Virus record (IMG/VR): IMGVR_UViG_2791355405_000002
Coordinates: 28,744-92,743 of that record
Origin: a virus
Taxonomy: Duplodnaviria > Caudoviricetes
DNA length: 64,000 nucleotides
Reading direction: 5' to 3' (one strand)
The notes beneath the pieces are model-generated. The model was not told the origin of the DNA, did no database searches, and saw nothing but the letters and a program-made list of their open reading frames with translations. Below, in pieces: positions 18,901-60,142 of this stretch. Within the stretch, counting starts at the first letter, position 1. Each line of letters opens with the position of its first letter. Position numbers and translations under genes: made by a program.

Positions 18901-18967
18901 GGTGTACGATGATTTAAGAAAATCAGCACCGACCAAGGAATCGTGACCAAGGAAGAGAGGACAGACG

Positions 18968-25152: not shown

Positions 25153-25494
25153 CCCGCACCACCAACCAAGGAACGAGGAACCCTGTGAGCACCGACTACC
25201 CGAAGGATCCGCATCCTCGCCGTCGCCGGTGAACTGGCCTTACGGCTTCACCTGGACGGAGGCGAGGTGGCCGACCTCGCCGGGCTGCCGAACGGCACGC
25301 ACTCGGCCACCTGCGACTTCAACTGACCGACCACGAAACGAGGAACCCGCCATGGCCGTTATCGCCCTCATCGCCATCATGTCCCCGCTCATCGCCGCCA
25401 CACTGTGGCTCGTCTTCGCGCCCGTGACGAGCAGCACCGACGACTGACCGGACCGACCCTCCGCAGCACCGACCAAGGAACGAGGAGACACGTC

Positions 25495-28658: not shown

Positions 28659-28731
28659 GGGGTTGTCCCGTCACCAGACCTATGATTTAATTAAGTCATC
28701 GAGAGGGACCGACCAAGGAAAGCAGGCCACC
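28659..28731 (+). promoter_or_regulatory. Promoter/operator plus leader cassette
   Basis: GGGGTTGT..TATGATTTAATTAAGTCA..ACCGACCAAGGAA. Confidence 0.8.
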
Positions 28732-31709: not shown

Positions 31710-32315
31710 ATGGACCGGATCTGGCGGGACGCGCGCAGCATCGGGGACCTCGGCGGCGCGATGGCCGGGTGGCTGGAGGGCCGCATCGCCTCGCAGCCGG
31801 GTTGCCCGGCCGGGCCGGACGACGAGACGCTGCCGCTCGTGCCGGTGCTCGCGCGGCTGAACCGGCGGGGCTGGGTCACCACGTGCTCGCAGCCCGGCGA
31901 GACCGGCACGGCGTACGACGGCCGTCGGTGGGAGCAGCGCGCGGCCGTGGAGGGATGGATCTCCTGCCGGAATCCCCTGCTCGGCACGCTCATCCGCCAG
32001 GCGCGAGCGACCGGGCTCATCGTCTCCGCGTACGGCCCGGGACGCGCTGTGGGCCCGTCTCGCGGCCTCGTGGTGACCCGATGGGGCGACGAGCCGCACA
32101 CCGGCTTCGGAGGGCGCCCCAGGCGCTTCCAGCGCCGCGCGGAGCTGCCGGGCATCGGTCGCCAGGCCCGGCAGGAACTCGCCCGCCACGGCGTCGCCCT
32201 CGCCGTCATCGACCCCGTCTGGGGCCGGGACTCCGTGCTCTGGGACGCCCTGGACCAGGCCATCGGGCACCGCGCGGACGACACCGCACCGACCAAGGAA
32301 ATGAGGACCCTGTGA
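31710..32315 (+). CDS. Conserved actinobacterial hypothetical protein (DUF6919-like)
   Basis: WLEG.I.S.PG..D.ET..LNR.G..T..SQPG pattern, recalled rather than searched. Confidence 0.6.
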   Translation: MDRIWRDARSIGDLGGAMAGWLEGRIASQPGCPAGPDDETLPLVPVLARLNRRGWVTTCSQPGETGTAYDGRRWEQRAAVEGWISCRNPLLGTLIRQARATGLIVSAYGPGRAVGPSRGLVVTRWGDEPHTGFGGRPRRFQRRAELPGIGRQARQELARHGVALAVIDPVWGRDSVLWDALDQAIGHRADDTAPTKEMRTL

Positions 32316-33532: not shown

Positions 33533-33617
33533 GGGGTTGTGTCCGTCGGGCAGTCATGGTTTAATTAATTCATCGGGGCCGGTAGGGCCCGACAGACCAA
33601 GGAAAGAGGAACCGACC
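33533..33617 (+). promoter_or_regulatory. Promoter/operator plus leader cassette
   Basis: GGGGTTGT..CATGGTTTAATTAATTCA..GACCAAGGAAAGAGGAACCGACC. Confidence 0.8.
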
Positions 33618-34043
33618 ATGATCAAGGCCTCCCGCCTCCGCCGCCGGATCGTCCGTGAGCGCGCCGCCGCCCGCCGCTTCGTCCGCTCCCTGTACCGGGG
33701 CCGCTCCCTCGCGACGCACCTGGCCTTCGCCGGTGTGGAGGACGCCGAGGTCATCAAGGGCGCCGCGAGCGGCCTGCGCTCGGCGGCCAAGCGGATCGGA
33801 GTGGGGCCTGCCAAGGTCGCCCGTACGCACCGCACCGCCGACGGCCGCTCGCCCCGGCTGCGCAAGGTGAACCACTACACCCCGGCGCAGATCGCCCGGA
33901 TCGCCGCCGCATACAAGCCCCGCAAGGCGGAATACAAGGCAGCCCTGGTCCTGCTCGTCCTGGCCTACGGCGCCCCGGTGACGGTCCGCCAGACGGCCCG
34001 TCCCGTCCAGGCCCCGGCCACCCGCGAACTGGTCAGCGCCTGA
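33618..34043 (+). CDS. Basic hypothetical protein
   Basis: Arg/Lys/Ala-rich, leader motif upstream. Confidence 0.7.
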   Translation: MIKASRLRRRIVRERAAARRFVRSLYRGRSLATHLAFAGVEDAEVIKGAASGLRSAAKRIGVGPAKVARTHRTADGRSPRLRKVNHYTPAQIARIAAAYKPRKAEYKAALVLLVLAYGAPVTVRQTARPVQAPATRELVSA

Positions 34044-34360: not shown

Positions 34361-34444
34361 GCCCTACGTGGACGTCATCGGCCCCGCGCCGGTGGCGCCC
34401 GCGAGGCGGCTCAGCCTCACCGACCAAGGAATGAGGAACCGATC

Positions 34445-34600
34445 ATGGCAGTTGTGTTCTCGGTCCCGGATGCCGGTCTTCTGCGCAACCTCAAGCGGGC
34501 CGACGAGGTGGCCGCCGAGTACGGCGGGGACGCCACCGTGAAGCAGGACCCCGCCACCGACACCTGGAACGTGCACGTCCCGGACGGGGACGACCGCTGA
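34445..34600 (+). CDS. 51-aa hypothetical protein
   Basis: Full leader motif; followed by a hairpin terminator. Confidence 0.65.
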   Translation: MAVVFSVPDAGLLRNLKRADEVAAEYGGDATVKQDPATDTWNVHVPDGDDR

Positions 34601-37483: not shown

Positions 37484-37573
37484 GGGGTTGTCCGCTCGTG
37501 AAATCCTTGGTTTAATTAAATCAGTCCGGGGTGCTTCCGGACTGACCAAGGAATCAGGAACGAGGAACCGACC
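37484..37573 (+). promoter_or_regulatory. Promoter/operator plus leader cassette
   Basis: GGGGTTGT..TGGTTTAATTAAATCA..GACCAAGGAA..GAGGAACCGACC. Confidence 0.8.
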
Positions 37574-38632: not shown

Positions 38633-38718
38633 CCGCGCGAGGCCCTGGGGTTGTCCGACCCCAGGGCCTCATGATTTAATTAAGTCAGCAACACCGACCA
38701 AGGAACGAGGAGATCAGC

Positions 38719-39094: not shown

Positions 39095-39133
39095 GACAGA
39101 CGGACCGCAGACCAGGGGAACGAGGAACCGACC

Positions 39134-39376
39134 ATGGCCGAGCACTTCACCGCCACCGGCTCACCCATGAACAACGCTGCTGAGGTCACGAGTCTGGCCC
39201 GCTGCAGCCGGTGCGGGGACGACAGGCTTGCCTGGAAGAAGTCGGCTCGCACCGGCAAGTGGTACCTCTGCGACGTCCAAGCCTGTGGCCGCTACGCGAC
39301 CCGCGAGAACCCGACGTTCCGTCGCTACTACGTCCTCGCGCGGCTGCCGCACAAGTGCCCGGCCCGCAACGCCTGA
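39134..39376 (+). CDS. Small zinc-binding protein
   Basis: CSRCG..W..S..GKWYLCD..PHKC. Confidence 0.7.
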   Translation: MAEHFTATGSPMNNAAEVTSLARCSRCGDDRLAWKKSARTGKWYLCDVQACGRYATRENPTFRRYYVLARLPHKCPARNA

Positions 39377-39711: not shown

Positions 39712-39744
39712 CCCGTACGACGATCAAGGAACGAGGAACCGACC

Positions 39745-40434: not shown

Positions 40435-40451
40435 CGGAGAATCCGAGCCCC

Positions 40452-40491
40452 GGGGTTGTGCTCCCCGGGGCTTTCTGATTTAATTAAATCA
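40452..40491 (+). promoter_or_regulatory. Promoter with perfect operator palindrome
   Basis: TGATTTAATTAAATCA at 40476-40491. Confidence 0.85.
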
Positions 40492-40528
40492 GTGGCCGGA
40501 CGGACCGGCCGGAAACGAGGAACCGACC

Positions 40529-40771
40529 ATGACTCAGTACCGCGTCAACTTCGCCCGCATCGGCCAGGACTTCAACGTGGCGCCGTTCGTCACCGAGGCG
40601 GAGGACCGGACGGAGCTGGAGCTGAACATCGGCGAGTACGTCAACAGCAGCCGCACCGCCCAGCTCAACCGCGAAGTCATCGGCGGAGGTCTGGACGACA
40701 ACGGACTCGGCGGGCGCCTGTTTGGCGAGTCGGGCGAGGACTACGGCACCTTCACCGTCATCAGCCTCTGA
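40529..40771 (+). CDS. Hypothetical protein
   Basis: Leader motif upstream. Confidence 0.7.
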   Translation: MTQYRVNFARIGQDFNVAPFVTEAEDRTELELNIGEYVNSSRTAQLNREVIGGGLDDNGLGGRLFGESGEDYGTFTVISL

Positions 40772-40864
40772 CCTGAGCACCGCTCGGGTCTACGGTCCGG
40801 ACACTCCGGCCCGCAGACCCTGTGAGACAGCTCAGCCCAGGATCACAGAAACGAGGAACCGACC

Positions 40865-41485
40865 ATGAGCAAAGGCGGAGGCCACAGCAAGGGCCAGACG
40901 ATGCCGTACGCCGTGGTGTACGCGTGGGACGGCGGCAAGCCGGCCCGGAACGCGAAGTGGAGCCTCGGCGCGGCCGAGGCAGCCATGCTCGACACGCTGC
41001 GCGCCTCGAACGCACGCGGCGGAAAGCTGGAGATCCGGATCATTGACCGGGCGACCGACGAGACCGTGGCCGAGCCGCAGCGCTGCGCCGTGTGCGGCGA
41101 CAACTGGGCCACCGAGGCGCGTGACTCCGGCCAGCCGACCGTGTGCCGCGACTGCGAGCACGACGTGGAGGACGGCCCGCAGCTCGACGCGAGCGACCGC
41201 GCTGCCTTCCGCAGCCTGGCCGCGCGAGCCGGCCTGGTCAAAGCCCCGGCTGAGTCGGCGCCGCTCGTCGCGGCCCTCCAGGCTAGGAAGCTGCACCCCG
41301 TCGCGCAGCCGAACGGCACGGTGACCGTCACGGTGAACGGCATCGAATGGACGCTGGAGCCGGTCCCGCACGCGGTCACGGGCGAGCCGTGCGGCGTGTG
41401 GTCGGCCGTCGGTCCCGCCGGCTCGCGCGGCCAGTTCGTGGCGCTCAACGCGGCCGAGTTCGTCGCCCAGCGCCGCGTCCCGTAG
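40865..41485 (+). CDS. Hypothetical protein
   Basis: Leader motif; CAVC..CRDC. Confidence 0.7.
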   Translation: MSKGGGHSKGQTMPYAVVYAWDGGKPARNAKWSLGAAEAAMLDTLRASNARGGKLEIRIIDRATDETVAEPQRCAVCGDNWATEARDSGQPTVCRDCEHDVEDGPQLDASDRAAFRSLAARAGLVKAPAESAPLVAALQARKLHPVAQPNGTVTVTVNGIEWTLEPVPHAVTGEPCGVWSAVGPAGSRGQFVALNAAEFVAQRRVP

Positions 41486-41524
41486 AACCCGTACATCCGA
41501 GACTGAGGAAACGAGGAACCGACC

Positions 41525-42109
41525 ATGACCCGGCAGACCGCCGCCCCGCTGGAACACACCAGCCTGAACCCGGCGTACCGCGAAGCATGGGGCCAGGTCC
41601 AGAACATCAAGGACGGGTCCCTGCTGCTGGACCCGTCGTACCAGCGCGGCAGCGTGTGGACGCTGGACCAGCGCATCGCGCTCGTGGAATCGTGGCTGCG
41701 CGGCCTGCCCGCCGGCGTCGTCATCCTCTCCAACCGGGGTACCAACCTCTGGCGCAGCGGCGACCCGTACGAGACTGGCCTGGGCATCTGGGCCGTGGTC
41801 GACGGCAAGCAGCGCCTGACCACCGCCATTCAGTGGTTCGCCGGCGAGTTCGCCGTCCCCGCCTCGTGGATGCCCGACGACTACGTGGCTGAGACCGAGG
41901 ACACCGACGACGGCCCGTACGTCCGGTTCACAGGCCTGACCCGGAAGGGCTCGATCTTCGTGAAGCGCCGGTGTGGGTTCATGGTTGCCGAGATCAGCGA
42001 CTGCGCGACCGAGGCTGATGAAGCCCGGTTCTACCTGCTCGTCAACGGCGGCGGCACGCAGCAGACCGAGGACGACATGGTCAACGCGGCCCGCGTCGCC
42101 GGGGCGTGA
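41525..42109 (+). CDS. Stand-alone DUF262 (GmrS/ParB-Srx fold) protein
   Basis: PSYQRGSVW, LVESWLRGLP, VVDGKQRLTT, FYLLVN.GG. Confidence 0.82.
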   Translation: MTRQTAAPLEHTSLNPAYREAWGQVQNIKDGSLLLDPSYQRGSVWTLDQRIALVESWLRGLPAGVVILSNRGTNLWRSGDPYETGLGIWAVVDGKQRLTTAIQWFAGEFAVPASWMPDDYVAETEDTDDGPYVRFTGLTRKGSIFVKRRCGFMVAEISDCATEADEARFYLLVNGGGTQQTEDDMVNAARVAGA

Positions 42110-42559: not shown

Positions 42560-42591
42560 CGGCCGGCCGGGAGCCGTGATCCCGGCAACGA

Positions 42592-42692
42592 GGGCCTATA
42601 GCTCAGTCAGGCAGAGCACCCGTAGAGCGCGAGCCTTGGTCGGTTCCCACGCGCTCCGGGAGACCCCGGTTCGAATCCGGGCGGGCCCGCCA
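42592..42692 (+). ncRNA. tRNA-like RNA with encoded CCA and an extended anticodon arm displaying CCUUGGUCGGUUCC
   Basis: GGGCCTA/CGGGCCC acceptor, GCTC/GAGC D stem, CCCG-TA-GAGCGCG...CGCGCTC-CGGG arm, CCCGG-TTCGAAT-CCGGG T arm, G-CCA end. Confidence 0.82.
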
Positions 42693-46177: not shown

Positions 46178-46248
46178 GCTCCCGTGGGATAACGGATGTC
46201 CGTCGGGCCCTCAACCCGGAAGTGCCGGATCGTGACCGGCCGGGAGCA
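46178..46248 (+). tRNA. Atypical tRNA-Glu(CTC)-like gene
   Basis: All four stems pair (GCTCCCG/CGGGAGC, GGAT/GTCC, TCGGG/CCCGG, GCCGG/CCGGC); loop CC-CTC-AA has C33; T loop is ATCGTGA. Confidence 0.65.
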
Positions 46249-46291
46249 CGCCACCCCTCACCCGCATCGCTGACCAAGGAAAGCAGGGCAC

Positions 46292-59600: not shown

Positions 59601-60142
59601 TCTATGTCGTCCTTCAGGTTCTGGAACGCCTTGGCCGTGTCTCTGGTGGCCGGCGTCATCGCCTTCATCTTCTCGTCGTAGATGGCCTGCGACTTGCGGG
59701 CGACGTTGGTAGCGGTGGCGACCTCGCGCACCGCTTTGTTGTACTCCTGCGCCTTGGCCTTGGACTCCTCCGACATCTTGGAGGTGATCTTGATCTGCTG
59801 GCCGTACTTGACGCCCATCTCCTTGGCCAGCCGTTGGGCGTGGGCCTTGGCGATGGTGGCTTTCTCGTTGTTCTCCTCAGCCGTTTCCAGCTTCTCGCTG
59901 GCCTCGGTGATCTTCTTGAACTGAGGAGCGACGGCCGCCGCGAAGGCGCCGCCAGCCGCGCCGGCGGAAGCCAGGGATGCGGTCATGGCGCCGACGCCAG
60001 CCGTCACGGCTGCCGTCATGGGCAGGAGCGACGTGGACAGGGCGCTCGCCGCGATGGAGCCCAGCCCCTTGACCGCCTTCATGGCCGGGGACGTGTCGGC
60101 GTCGATGCGGACGAAGCCGGTCCCGATCAGCACTCCGGCCAT
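56624..60142 (-). CDS. Tape measure protein with C-terminal lytic transglycosylase domain
   Basis: Ala/Gly-rich helical body, Trp/Phe periodic repeats, QESGGNP.A.N..D.NA..G.PSVGLMQVI.PTF. Confidence 0.92.
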   Translation of the reverse strand: MAGVLIGTGFVRIDADTSPAMKAVKGLGSIAASALSTSLLPMTAAVTAGVGAMTASLASAGAAGGAFAAAVAPQFKKITEASEKLETAEENNEKATIAKAHAQRLAKEMGVKYGQQIKITSKMSEESKAKAQEYNKAVREVATATNVARKSQAIYDEKMKAMTPATRDTAKAFQNLKDDIDKWSDSLSSTTMPIFTAGINKVRELLPKLTPFVKIASREIKEFVSSFSFGQAGRVFSEFGRNLQGNAGSALGNLLDTIRNVTVGVVGMINAFMPVQSDMSGGLVELTDRFATFGANLGQSEGFATFLERARGAVPALKDIGSAIADVVSAAGPMSGFGLLMLQVFSQLVSAIPTPALKLLVPAILAVNAGMKLYRIYQAAAATASWLFTTSVTTSTGAVYANRLALVGHRLALIGNRIATTASTVATRVWAAATWTANMASRAAALGLRLLTGVLRVARVAVLLTAGAMRALAIAMLTNPVGIIITALIALGAAFFIAWKKSEAFRDGVKAVLNGAKDVGIAVGGWFAGPFVRFFTEKIPGAFQALLNWVQTKWTALVSLMSLPVQMGVRYILDRWEILRAGMSAVWGAIRSNVLNPIGNFFTKTIPSWAAYVRDFVVHTWNVILERLSTVYQGLKNRFFTPIGNFFTKVVPGWAGTVRDRVVGAWNGLRDRLAGVYSSVRSKVFTPIGNFFTRTIPGWAGTVRNRVSGTWNGLRNSLVGVYGSIKSRVFTPIGNFFTRTIPGWAKTLRDKVHGFFRSMRDGIGTIWNGIKSKTKSPINWVLDHVWNRGLVSVWGKIAGWVGLKNSLKKVKMLAAGGTVGPRRAEPGVFSKPTAIVGEGNPRYPEFVIPTDPRYATRARGLWEAAGAHFYAEGGILGTIKGAIGSVFDTGKSLSKVALSFLSDPVDKAKDMLMGPLKGMTRAIGSSAWAKMAARLPRMAVDGLIRAVKSVGSDLLGLGGGGPVDIGGSGVKRWTGVVRQALGLVGQPLSLTNTTLRRMNQESGGNPRAVNLRDINAKRGYPSVGLMQVIRPTFQAHAGRFRKTGPFMYGTSINPLANVYASMRYALSAYGNLSRAYNRPGGYATGTDGASTGWHWVGETGPELLKLPAGARVRSHRASVRQAATSVAPAVVHLTVENHGVIGSQQEVLNWLVASLDQLSRRNRLPRGLRGTA

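What the first reader, a model, noticed from the sequence alone, without database searches (positions are those of the whole stretch)
42592..42692. tRNA-shaped RNA whose replaced anticodon loop is antisense to the element's own translation-initiation leader
Seen: acceptor stem, D arm, canonical TTCGAAT T loop and encoded CCA are intact. The anticodon arm is instead an 11-bp bulged stem with an 18-nt loop containing CCTTGGTCGGTTCC (42634-42647), whose reverse complement is GGAACCGACCAAGG. This matches both halves of the leader that precedes many early genes. ACCGACCAAGG occurs exactly at 18928, 25468, 28708, 32288, 34419 and 38693. GGAACCGACC sits immediately before start codons at 33608, 37564, 39124, 39735, 40519, 40855 and 41515; at 39124 GGAACCGACCATGG matches 13 of 14. 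Inference: a tRNA scaffold, matured and stabilised by host RNase P and 3' processing, presents a guide loop that pairs with the RBS/start region of a whole regulon, to silence it or to recruit ribosomes. I know of no described system like this.
Basis: partly seen in the sequence, partly recalled or inferred. Interest (0 to 1): 0.93.

Follow-up and report, generated by a model that had tools for sequence, protein, structure and literature searches.

The report
tRNA-shaped anti-leader RNA of phage-plasmids
A family of large Streptomyces phage-plasmids carries a gene for a tRNA-shaped RNA whose anticodon arm has been replaced by a hairpin; the tip of that hairpin can pair with the private sequence tag in front of about two dozen of the element's own early genes, so it is probably a single RNA switch for their translation, which has not been tested.

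Summary
Window 42592-42692 (+) scores as tRNA in Rfam (43.2 bits; cut-off 29). A 4-bp + 7-bp bulged stem with an 18-nt loop replaces the anticodon arm.

The 14-nt loop core (42634-42647) is the exact reverse complement of the two non-Shine-Dalgarno halves of the leader before the element's early genes. That leader is private to this 92.7-kb contig.

The RNA occurs in at least 15 related Streptomyces phage-plasmid contigs. The scaffold drifts to 81-91% identity, with compensatory changes and a reduced D arm in some. The core never changes.

A scan for the leader alone found 15 viral contigs. All nine that I searched for the RNA hold it. Phage ZL12 has neither leader nor RNA.

Best reading (about 0.6): an RNA excised from an early operon that pairs with the leaders and blocks translation initiation. 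It works like C4 RNA of P1/P7 but is not a member of that family.

- Expression, processing and the sign of the effect are inferred.
- No loop variants exist in the data searched, so co-variation could not be tested.
- The scan has flagged the same kind of RNA before on other DNA (four earlier notes).
- I found no description of it in the paper library I searched.

The parts
42592..42692 (+). tRNA-shaped RNA gene (101 nt including the encoded CCA)
   Evidence: Rfam tRNA at 43.2 bits over model positions 1-71. Homologues occur in at least 15 phage-plasmid contigs. The structure is 91.6% paired across 12 distinct sequences, with compensatory changes.
42619..42660 (+). Hairpin that replaces the anticodon arm: 4-bp outer stem, 2-nt bulge, 7-bp GC-rich inner stem and 18-nt loop
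   Evidence: Folds. The inner stem is invariant or G-U compatible in all 12 distinct homologues.
42634..42647 (+). 14-nt anti-leader core in the loop. The apical 6 nt (42638-42643 in the predicted fold) complement the commonest leader word.
   Evidence: Invariant in 12 distinct sequences, while the 2-3 loop bases on either side vary. It is the only reverse-sense copy of the leader halves in the window.
42567..42585 (+). Hairpin just upstream of the RNA, after the stop codon of the preceding gene. Likely the protective 3' end of the upstream mRNA piece after excision (inferred).
   Evidence: Conserved together with the RNA while the upstream coding sequence is unrelated between elements (alignment A2). 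Other homologues have a different hairpin at the same place.
40445..40491 (+). Nearest upstream terminator-promoter-operator cassette, the likely promoter of the operon that contains the RNA
   Evidence: One of about 20 such cassettes. No sigma-70-like promoter lies between it and the RNA.
18928..18938 (+). Leader site of type A (upstream box, near the 5' end of the transcript), exact 11-nt complement of the loop
   Evidence: It lies 2 nt after an operator palindrome.
25468..25478 (+). Leader site of type A
28708..28718 (+). Leader site of type A. Duplex with the loop is -28.5 kcal/mol.
32288..32298 (+). Leader site of type A
34419..34429 (+). Leader site of type A, followed by a near-copy of type B before the ATG at 34445
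38693..38703 (+). Leader site of type A
33608..33618 (+). Leader site of type B (abuts the start codon), 11-nt complement
37564..37573 (+). Leader site of type B before GTG
39124..39137 (+). Leader site of type B, 13 of 14 complementary, -28.3 kcal/mol
39735..39744 (+). Leader site of type B before GTG
40519..40529 (+). Leader site of type B
40855..40865 (+). Leader site of type B
41515..41525 (+). Leader site of type B

Best explanation
The gene makes a stable small RNA built on a tRNA body.

How it is made (inferred)
- It has no promoter of its own. It is transcribed inside an early operon that starts at the operator-controlled promoter near 40476.
- It is cut out like a tRNA: RNase P at the 5' end, then 3' trimming to the CCA.

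What it does
- It has no anticodon loop, so it cannot decode. This follows directly from the sequence.
- The lengthened arm presents a loop that pairs with the element's own mRNA leaders at two kinds of site.
- One site is an 11-nt box near the 5' end of the primary transcripts, over the first Shine-Dalgarno-like AAGG.
- The other is an 11-14-nt box from the second Shine-Dalgarno sequence to the A, and sometimes the G, of the start codon.
- Pairing would keep 30S subunits off about 15-28 early, non-structural genes at once.

Likely role (inferred)
- The RNA is made with those genes and should outlast their mRNAs. The most likely role is therefore delayed shut-off of early-gene translation.
- A second possible role is silencing of incoming relatives that carry the same leader.

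Shown: the structure, its conservation, the complementarity, and the co-occurrence with the leader.
Inferred: expression, processing, pairing in the cell, and the repressive sign.
For: 1. Complementarity far above chance.
2. The loop core is invariant in 12 distinct homologues. Meanwhile the scaffold falls to 81-91% identity, changes its acceptor, D and T stems in a compensatory way, and in three sequences loses most of the D arm. The loop bases flanking the core vary.
3. The hairpin-RNA-next-leader cassette is conserved while the flanking genes differ.
4. A scan for the leader alone, independent of the RNA, found 15 viral contigs. All nine that I searched for the RNA hold it; of the other six, four are marked as holders only by scans that required the 14-nt core or the stem (two of them, L032 and L033, read and aligned), and two small fragments were not checked. 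Phage ZL12, the only distant named relative, has neither leader nor RNA.
5. The leader is private. 33 of 45 copies of its 10-nt core in the 9.1-Mb genome, and 9 of 10 copies of the 12-nt form, lie in this one 92.7-kb contig, all in gene sense.
6. The conserved leader parts that match the loop centre are not Shine-Dalgarno bases, so ribosome binding alone does not explain them.
7. Leader-bearing start regions are unusually open: folding energy -6.7 against -11.3 kcal/mol (p = 3e-5). This fits repression rather than activation by unfolding.
8. A partial parallel exists in Cluster K1 mycobacteriophages. The single reverse-sense copy of their start-associated sequence sits in the 10-nt loop of a GC-rich bulged hairpin in a conserved non-coding region.
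Against: - No loop or leader variants were found, so there is no co-variation.
- The predicted fold pairs 5 nt on each side of the core, leaving only 6 nt free.
- The loop also pairs fairly well with ordinary Shine-Dalgarno regions. Genes outside the early block average -17.7 kcal/mol.
- Seven leaders, including that of the gene just downstream of the RNA, carry a C in place of an A in the box, which breaks the match.
- In the Cluster K parallel, Amgine keeps the canonical leader but has a changed loop. Pixie and SirPhilip have leaders without the hairpin. Leaders therefore work without an anti-leader RNA.
- Other members of the wider tRNA-like family show no repeated or nearby targets.
Confidence: 0.6

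Rival explanations
1. The same pairing, with the opposite sign. The RNA helps translation or stabilises the leader-bearing mRNAs, for example by protecting their 5' ends from RNases or by bringing them to ribosomes through its tRNA body.
For: - Type A sites lie within about 20 nt of the predicted transcript 5' ends, where a duplex could block 5'-end-dependent decay.
- The RNA is co-transcribed with its putative targets.
Against: - Type B sites cover the spacer and the start codon, where a duplex should block initiation.
- The leaders are already unstructured, so nothing needs opening.
- An arm lengthened by 7 bp is unlikely to fit a ribosomal tRNA site. That point rests on general knowledge.
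Confidence: 0.13
2. The motif works on DNA. The leader boxes are oriented binding sites for a phage protein, like the stoperators of Cluster A mycobacteriophages, and the copy in the RNA gene is one more site in the other orientation, or a decoy for that protein.
For: - Oriented repeats in short intergenic gaps are what stoperators look like. PMC3203893 draws this contrast.
- The element has many regulated promoters.
Against: - The element already has a separate palindromic operator at each promoter.
- The boxes are fused to the Shine-Dalgarno sequence and abut the start codon at fixed distance.
- The reverse copy sits exactly in the loop of a conserved hairpin within a structured RNA, and its flanks vary while it does not.
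Confidence: 0.08
3. The RNA serves replication or maintenance of the extrachromosomal prophage, as primer or copy-number RNA. Non-coding RNAs near parABS do this in some mycobacterial prophages. On this reading the match to the leader is secondary.
For: - The RNA lies 1.5-2.5 kb from a ParA-like gene, both here and in pS1D4-14.2.
- RNA-based prophage replication is documented in PMC7157519.
Against: - It does not explain a 14-nt invariant loop that matches about two dozen start regions.
- The RNA is not adjacent to the par genes.
- No tRNA-like RNA is mentioned in that paper.
Confidence: 0.05
4. A decaying tRNA gene that happened to acquire a palindromic insert. It has no function.
For: - ARAGORN fails on it.
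- The whole-molecule fold is only z = -1.9 against shuffles.
- No close host tRNA parent was found.
Against: - It is conserved in at least 15 elements, with compensatory changes and an invariant loop.
- It is conserved more strongly than the flanking genes.
Confidence: 0.03

Closest known systems
C4 antisense RNA of phages P1/P7 (Rfam RF01695), and the related CI RNA of satellite P4 (the latter from memory)
   Same: - A small RNA of a phage-plasmid.
- Cut out of a longer transcript by RNase P at a tRNA-like stem.
- Loops pair with the element's own mRNA, and one loop partly occludes a ribosome-binding site (PMC5320573, citing Hartmann 1995 and Citron and Schuster).
   Different: - No sequence or structure match: Rfam finds only tRNA here.
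- C4 is a three-hairpin RNA without D or T arms.
- C4 has one target region in one operon, not a tag shared by about two dozen start sites.
- Its host is enterobacterial.
Start-associated sequences (SAS) of Cluster K mycobacteriophages
   Same: - An asymmetric conserved motif that includes the Shine-Dalgarno sequence but extends beyond it.
- Placed a few bases before the start codons of 13-19 non-structural genes, in one orientation, mostly before ATG.
- Absent from the host.
- Its role is still called unknown in 2024-2025 papers (PMC3203893, PMC11373665, PMC12699233).
   Different: - The sequence differs.
- No RNA partner has been described. I found that the single reverse-sense SAS of K1 phages lies in a hairpin loop of a non-coding region, but that hairpin is not tRNA-like.
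- The hairpin is missing or altered in subclusters that keep the SAS.
Engineered 'tRNA scaffold' for recombinant RNA
   Same: The design is identical: acceptor, D and T arms are kept and the anticodon stem-loop is replaced by a payload, so that the cell processes and stabilises the RNA like a tRNA (PMC3753655, PMC3401473).
   Different: That is a laboratory construct in E. coli. This one is natural, and its payload is an antisense loop.
Other tRNA look-alikes: tmRNA, bacterial Y RNA (YrlA), and the stable RNAs C and D of the T4 tRNA cluster (from memory)
   Same: They use parts of the tRNA fold for processing or protein recognition, without decoding by an anticodon.
   Different: - tmRNA and YrlA lack this topology and do not match.
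- None displays an antisense loop against a set of leaders.

Membership tests
tRNA (Rfam RF00005) | Cloverleaf with acceptor, D and T arms that scores above the curated cut-off | tested here: met
   43.2 bits against a cut-off of 29, with model positions 1-71 matched. The pS1D4-14.2 homologue falls below the cut-off.
tRNA (Rfam RF00005) | 5-bp anticodon stem with a 7-nt loop, U33 and an anticodon, so that it can decode | tested here: not met
   A 42-nt bulged hairpin with an 18-nt loop takes the place of the 17-nt arm. ARAGORN does not call it. ARAGORN's calls on relatives disagree with one another.
tRNA (Rfam RF00005) | Aminoacylation and use on the ribosome | not testable with these tools
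   There is no G3:U70 pair and no long variable arm. The discriminator is G here and A in the relatives.
C4 antisense RNA (RF01695) | Match to the family's covariance model | tested here: not met
   No hit at the gathering score over the whole window, nor at E up to 1 around the gene.
C4 antisense RNA (RF01695) | Loop complementary to the ribosome-binding region of the element's own mRNA | tested here: met
   This shows that it works like C4, not that it belongs to the family.
C4 antisense RNA (RF01695) | Excised from a longer transcript by RNase P | not testable with these tools
   It has an acceptor stem plus an encoded CCA, and no nearby promoter. This is consistent only.
Start-associated sequence (applies to the leader, not the RNA) | Asymmetric motif, in gene sense only, within a few bases of the start codons of non-structural genes, rare in the host | tested here: met
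   The sequence differs from the Cluster K motif, so it is an analogue.
   20 distinct sequences. Six of seven acceptor pairs show changes on both sides. The invariance of the D and T arms was partly imposed by the search pattern.

The most novel reading that the evidence does not exclude
Private leader tags paired with a dedicated anti-leader RNA may be a general way for actinobacterial phages to switch translation of a whole gene set. In Streptomyces phage-plasmids the anti-leader is mounted on a tRNA body. In Cluster K1 mycobacteriophages it sits in a hairpin of a non-coding transcript. If so, this would give the long-unexplained start-associated sequences their missing partner. The wider family of tRNA bodies with hypervariable hairpins in Streptomyces genomes would then be a natural, reprogrammable tRNA-scaffold platform for regulatory RNAs.
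Probability: 0.25. Interest if true: 0.9.

Novelty: new variant of a known kind. Interest (0 to 1): 0.78.

Why it matters
- One small RNA gating the translation of a whole early-gene set, through a tag that only the element's own mRNAs carry, would be a compact regulatory layer not described for phages in the paper library I searched.
- It would make a fifteen-year-old question directly testable: what start-associated sequences are for. The test needs loop mutants and compensatory leader mutants.
- It would show that nature uses the 'tRNA scaffold' trick of RNA engineers.
- It could supply an orthogonal leader/anti-leader pair for gene control in Streptomyces, a genus with few such tools.

Tried and rejected
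Nothing was laid.
- Loop variants: scans that leave the loop free gave no group member with a different core.
- A scan for the 14-mer alone in viral contigs is swamped by chance hits.
- Generalising to other tRNA-like/hairpin RNAs: their loops have no repeated reverse-complement matches. They have no significant local targets either, except L036, whose loop matches a site about 26 nt downstream (z = -3.3). They share no conserved neighbour gene.
- Mimicry of 16S rRNA: the host 16S shares an 8-mer plus a gapped 5-mer with the loop, near position 1000. By homology that stretch should be base-paired in the ribosome, and the match is weak. I treat it as chance.
- Host parent tRNA: none is close.
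- ZL12 as a relative: it shares only about 70 nt and lacks both features.
- Broad pattern for tRNA bodies with long inserts in viral contigs: the result is a mixed bag, including intron-bearing tRNAs of giant viruses, and cannot serve as one family.
- Literature: no paper in the library describes a tRNA-bodied antisense RNA or an RNA partner of the SAS.

Full report
WHAT IS THERE

Window 42592-42692 (+) matches the Rfam tRNA model from first to last position at 43.2 bits, against a cut-off of 29. Thirty-four nucleotides stand where the model has nine. The sequence reads as follows.
- A 7-position acceptor stem: five Watson-Crick pairs, one U-G pair and one A-C mismatch.
- U8 and A9, then a 4-bp D stem whose loop contains GG.
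- A 42-nt hairpin: a 4-bp stem, a 2-nt bulge, a 7-bp GC-rich stem and an 18-nt loop.
- A 4-nt variable region, then a 5-bp T stem with a canonical T loop.
- Discriminator G and an encoded CCA.

ARAGORN misses the gene. No other reverse-sense copy of either box exists in the window.

THE SETTING

The window is the right-hand 64 kb of a 92.7-kb contig, C551.
- The contig carries tail and lysis genes, a ParA-like gene and about 20 repeated cassettes.
- Each cassette holds a terminator hairpin, a -35-like element, a 17-nt spacer, a -10-like element and a 16-bp AT-rich palindromic operator.
- Its size and content match Streptomyces phage-plasmids, such as the 98.8-kb linear plasmid pS1D4-14.2 and several 90-98-kb IMG/VR contigs.
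- Phage ZL12 is only a distant relative.

The full leader has five parts in this order: box, AAGGAA, a second Shine-Dalgarno sequence, box, start codon. Individual genes carry all or part of it.
- The upstream box begins a few bases after the predicted transcription start at several promoters.
- The downstream box abuts the start codon.
- The leader is private to the element. 33 of 45 genome-wide copies of its 10-nt core, 9 of 10 copies of the 12-nt form, and all 10 copies of the operator word lie in this one contig.

IS THE COMPLEMENTARITY MEANINGFUL?

- The 14-mer with up to three mismatches occurs 35 times, against 10.0 +/- 3.4 in shuffles.
- Of 81 predicted start regions, 15 pair with the loop at -22 kcal/mol or better. 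For 300 shuffled loops the mean is 1.1 and the largest count is 8. A sense copy of the loop gives none.
- The boxes are not Shine-Dalgarno bases, so ribosome binding alone does not account for their conservation.

CONSERVATION

A pattern built from the D and T arms, leaving the middle free, found the RNA in pS1D4-14.2, three IMG/VR contigs and three Streptomyces assemblies.

An independent scan for the leader alone found 15 viral contigs.
- I searched nine of them for the RNA, and all nine hold it.
- Four more are marked as holders only by scans that required the 14-nt core or the stem. Two of these, L032 and L033, were read and aligned.
- Two small fragments, of 6.7 and 8.7 kb, were not checked.
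- ZL12 has neither leader nor RNA.

The twelve distinct sequences were aligned (A4).
- Identity to the window's RNA falls to 81-91%.
- The D stem switches U-A to A-U or G-C. The first T-stem pair switches C-G to U-A. Acceptor pairs change as well.
- Three sequences have lost most of the D arm.
- Two lack an encoded CCA.
- The 14-nt core and the 7-bp inner stem never change, while the two or three loop bases on each side of the core do.

Between the window and pS1D4-14.2, only the RNA and its immediate flanks are alignable at DNA level. The conserved cassette consists of an upstream hairpin, the RNA and the leader of the next gene.

HOW IT PROBABLY WORKS

No promoter-like site lies between the cassette at 40445-40491 and the RNA. 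The RNA is therefore most likely part of an early operon and is released by tRNA-processing enzymes. The upstream hairpin could protect the 3' end of the upstream mRNA piece. This is inference.

Repression is the more likely sign of the effect, for three reasons.
- Pairing at the downstream box covers -10 to +1, and the G of the start codon where the next base allows. At 39124 it is 13 of 14 and -28.3 kcal/mol.
- Pairing at the upstream box covers the first AAGG.
- Leader-bearing start regions are significantly less structured than the rest (-6.7 against -11.3 kcal/mol, p = 3e-5) and poor in U. They look like constitutively open, efficient start sites, which need a trans-acting block rather than an opener.

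In the predicted fold the core pairs with itself at its ends and leaves a 6-nt apical loop. That loop complements the most widespread leader word. This is the usual geometry for loop-first antisense recognition, a point that rests on general knowledge.

The RNA would be made with its targets and, like a tRNA, should outlive them. A delayed shut-off of early translation is therefore the simplest role. Immunity against incoming relatives that carry the same leader is a second possibility.

WEAK POINTS

- Nothing shows that the RNA exists in cells.
- Loop and leader are both invariant in every element found, so co-variation cannot be tested.
- The loop's CCUU and UUCC ends give it some affinity for any Shine-Dalgarno region.
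- Seven leaders carry a C that breaks the match, including the leader just downstream of the RNA in every element. They may be an exempt class, or they may count against the model.

A WIDER FAMILY

The same D and T arms occur in at least 14 further distinct Streptomyces sequences. These have co-varying acceptor stems (six of seven pairs with changes on both sides, 93% paired) and completely different long GC-rich hairpins.
- Some occur in pairs (L045, L044, L036).
- One lies next to an IS110-family transposase and one near RtcB.
- Their loops have no repeated targets and no significant nearby targets, apart from L036.
- The anti-leader use is thus established, as a pattern in the sequence, only for the phage-plasmid group.

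A PARALLEL IN MYCOBACTERIOPHAGES

Pope et al. (PMC3203893) noted that Cluster K1 phages have one start-associated sequence in the opposite orientation, with no gene start nearby. In Anaya that copy has these features.
- It lies in the 385-nt gap between gp96 and gp97.
- An intrinsic terminator and a SigA-like promoter precede it.
- It forms the 10-nt loop of a bulged GC-rich hairpin. The fold has z = -3.0 in Anaya and -6.0 in Adephagia.

The region is conserved in 145 Cluster K records. The K1-like phages I aligned (Anaya, Adephagia, Murucutumbu, Niklas and Amelie) keep the anti-SAS loop.

Other subclusters break the pattern.
- Amgine and DarthP have altered pyrimidine-rich loops, although Amgine keeps 17 canonical SAS copies.
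- Keshu and Pixie have a different hairpin.
- SirPhilip has no hairpin.

The logic recurs with a different sequence in a different phage group, which supports the idea. It also shows that the leaders function without the RNA.

COMPARISON WITH KNOWN SYSTEMS

- In function, the RNA is closest to C4 of P1/P7: processed by RNase P, with a loop that masks a ribosome-binding site in a phage-plasmid (PMC5320573). It fails the family's model, so it is an analogue and not a member.
- In design, it equals the engineered tRNA scaffold (PMC3753655).
- It is not a decoding tRNA.
- I found no description of such an RNA, or of an RNA partner for the SAS, in the library searched.
- Four earlier notes of this scan describe the same kind of RNA on other DNA with the same reading. 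I re-derived the points independently. New here are the leader-first co-occurrence test, the diverged scaffolds with an invariant core, the wider family, the openness of the leaders, and the Cluster K test.

VERDICT

- The mechanism is untested.
- Novelty: a new variant of a known kind, namely phage antisense RNA with tRNA-like maturation.
- Interest: 0.78.

Noticed in passing
L036 (=L005), L037, L040-L046, L048, L049, L035/L038, L135: A wider Streptomyces family of tRNA-like RNAs. They share the D and T arms, have co-varying acceptor stems (often C1-G72), and carry a long GC-rich hairpin of entirely variable sequence in place of the anticodon arm. Some occur in tandem or in pairs. Their function is unknown, and no repeated or local targets were found.
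   Followed up: partly
L036, oriented minus strand, about 26 nt after the first tRNA-like RNA: The 16-nt loop of this RNA is complementary (15 of 16, with one bulge) to a site just downstream (duplex -30.3 kcal/mol, 0 of 100 shuffles as good). A second, degenerate tRNA-like gene follows.
   Followed up: partly
L172 39852-39902 (Mycobacterium phage Anaya, record 59851-59901) and alignment A3: The single reverse-sense start-associated sequence of Cluster K1 phages sits in the 10-nt loop of a bulged GC-rich hairpin. The hairpin lies in a conserved non-coding region with its own terminator and promoter. It is altered in Amgine and DarthP and absent in SirPhilip, Keshu and Pixie.
   Followed up: partly
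window 1949-45831, about 20 sites, e.g. 28659-28698 and 40445-40491: Repeated terminator-promoter-operator cassettes. A 16-bp AT-rich palindrome overlaps the -10 element. All 10 genome copies of its 12-nt word lie in this contig.
   Followed up: partly
own genome, contig C255 33371-33384: The only other perfect copy of the 14-mer in the 9.1-Mb genome, in target sense, lies inside a coding region that reads like the ATPase of an ABC transporter. It is probably chance.
   Followed up: no
window 25809, 27053, 29686, 31075, 42311, 42729, 43304 (gene starts): A second class of leader has C in place of A in the box, which breaks pairing with the loop. The gene directly downstream of the RNA has this form in every element aligned.
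   Followed up: no
window 46178-46249: An ordinary tRNA-Glu (CUC) gene lies 3.5 kb downstream of the tRNA-like RNA.
   Followed up: no
window 41525-42106: The gene two positions upstream of the RNA encodes a protein with a GmrSD N-terminal (DUF262) domain, which suggests a nuclease directed at modified DNA.
   Followed up: no
L050-L169 (IMG/VR): Many viral contigs of varied GC content carry tRNA bodies with 33-57-nt inserts between the D and T arms. Some are intron-bearing tRNAs of giant viruses. Others are bacterial-phage genes with long hairpins (for example L139, L141, L157, L166).
   Followed up: no
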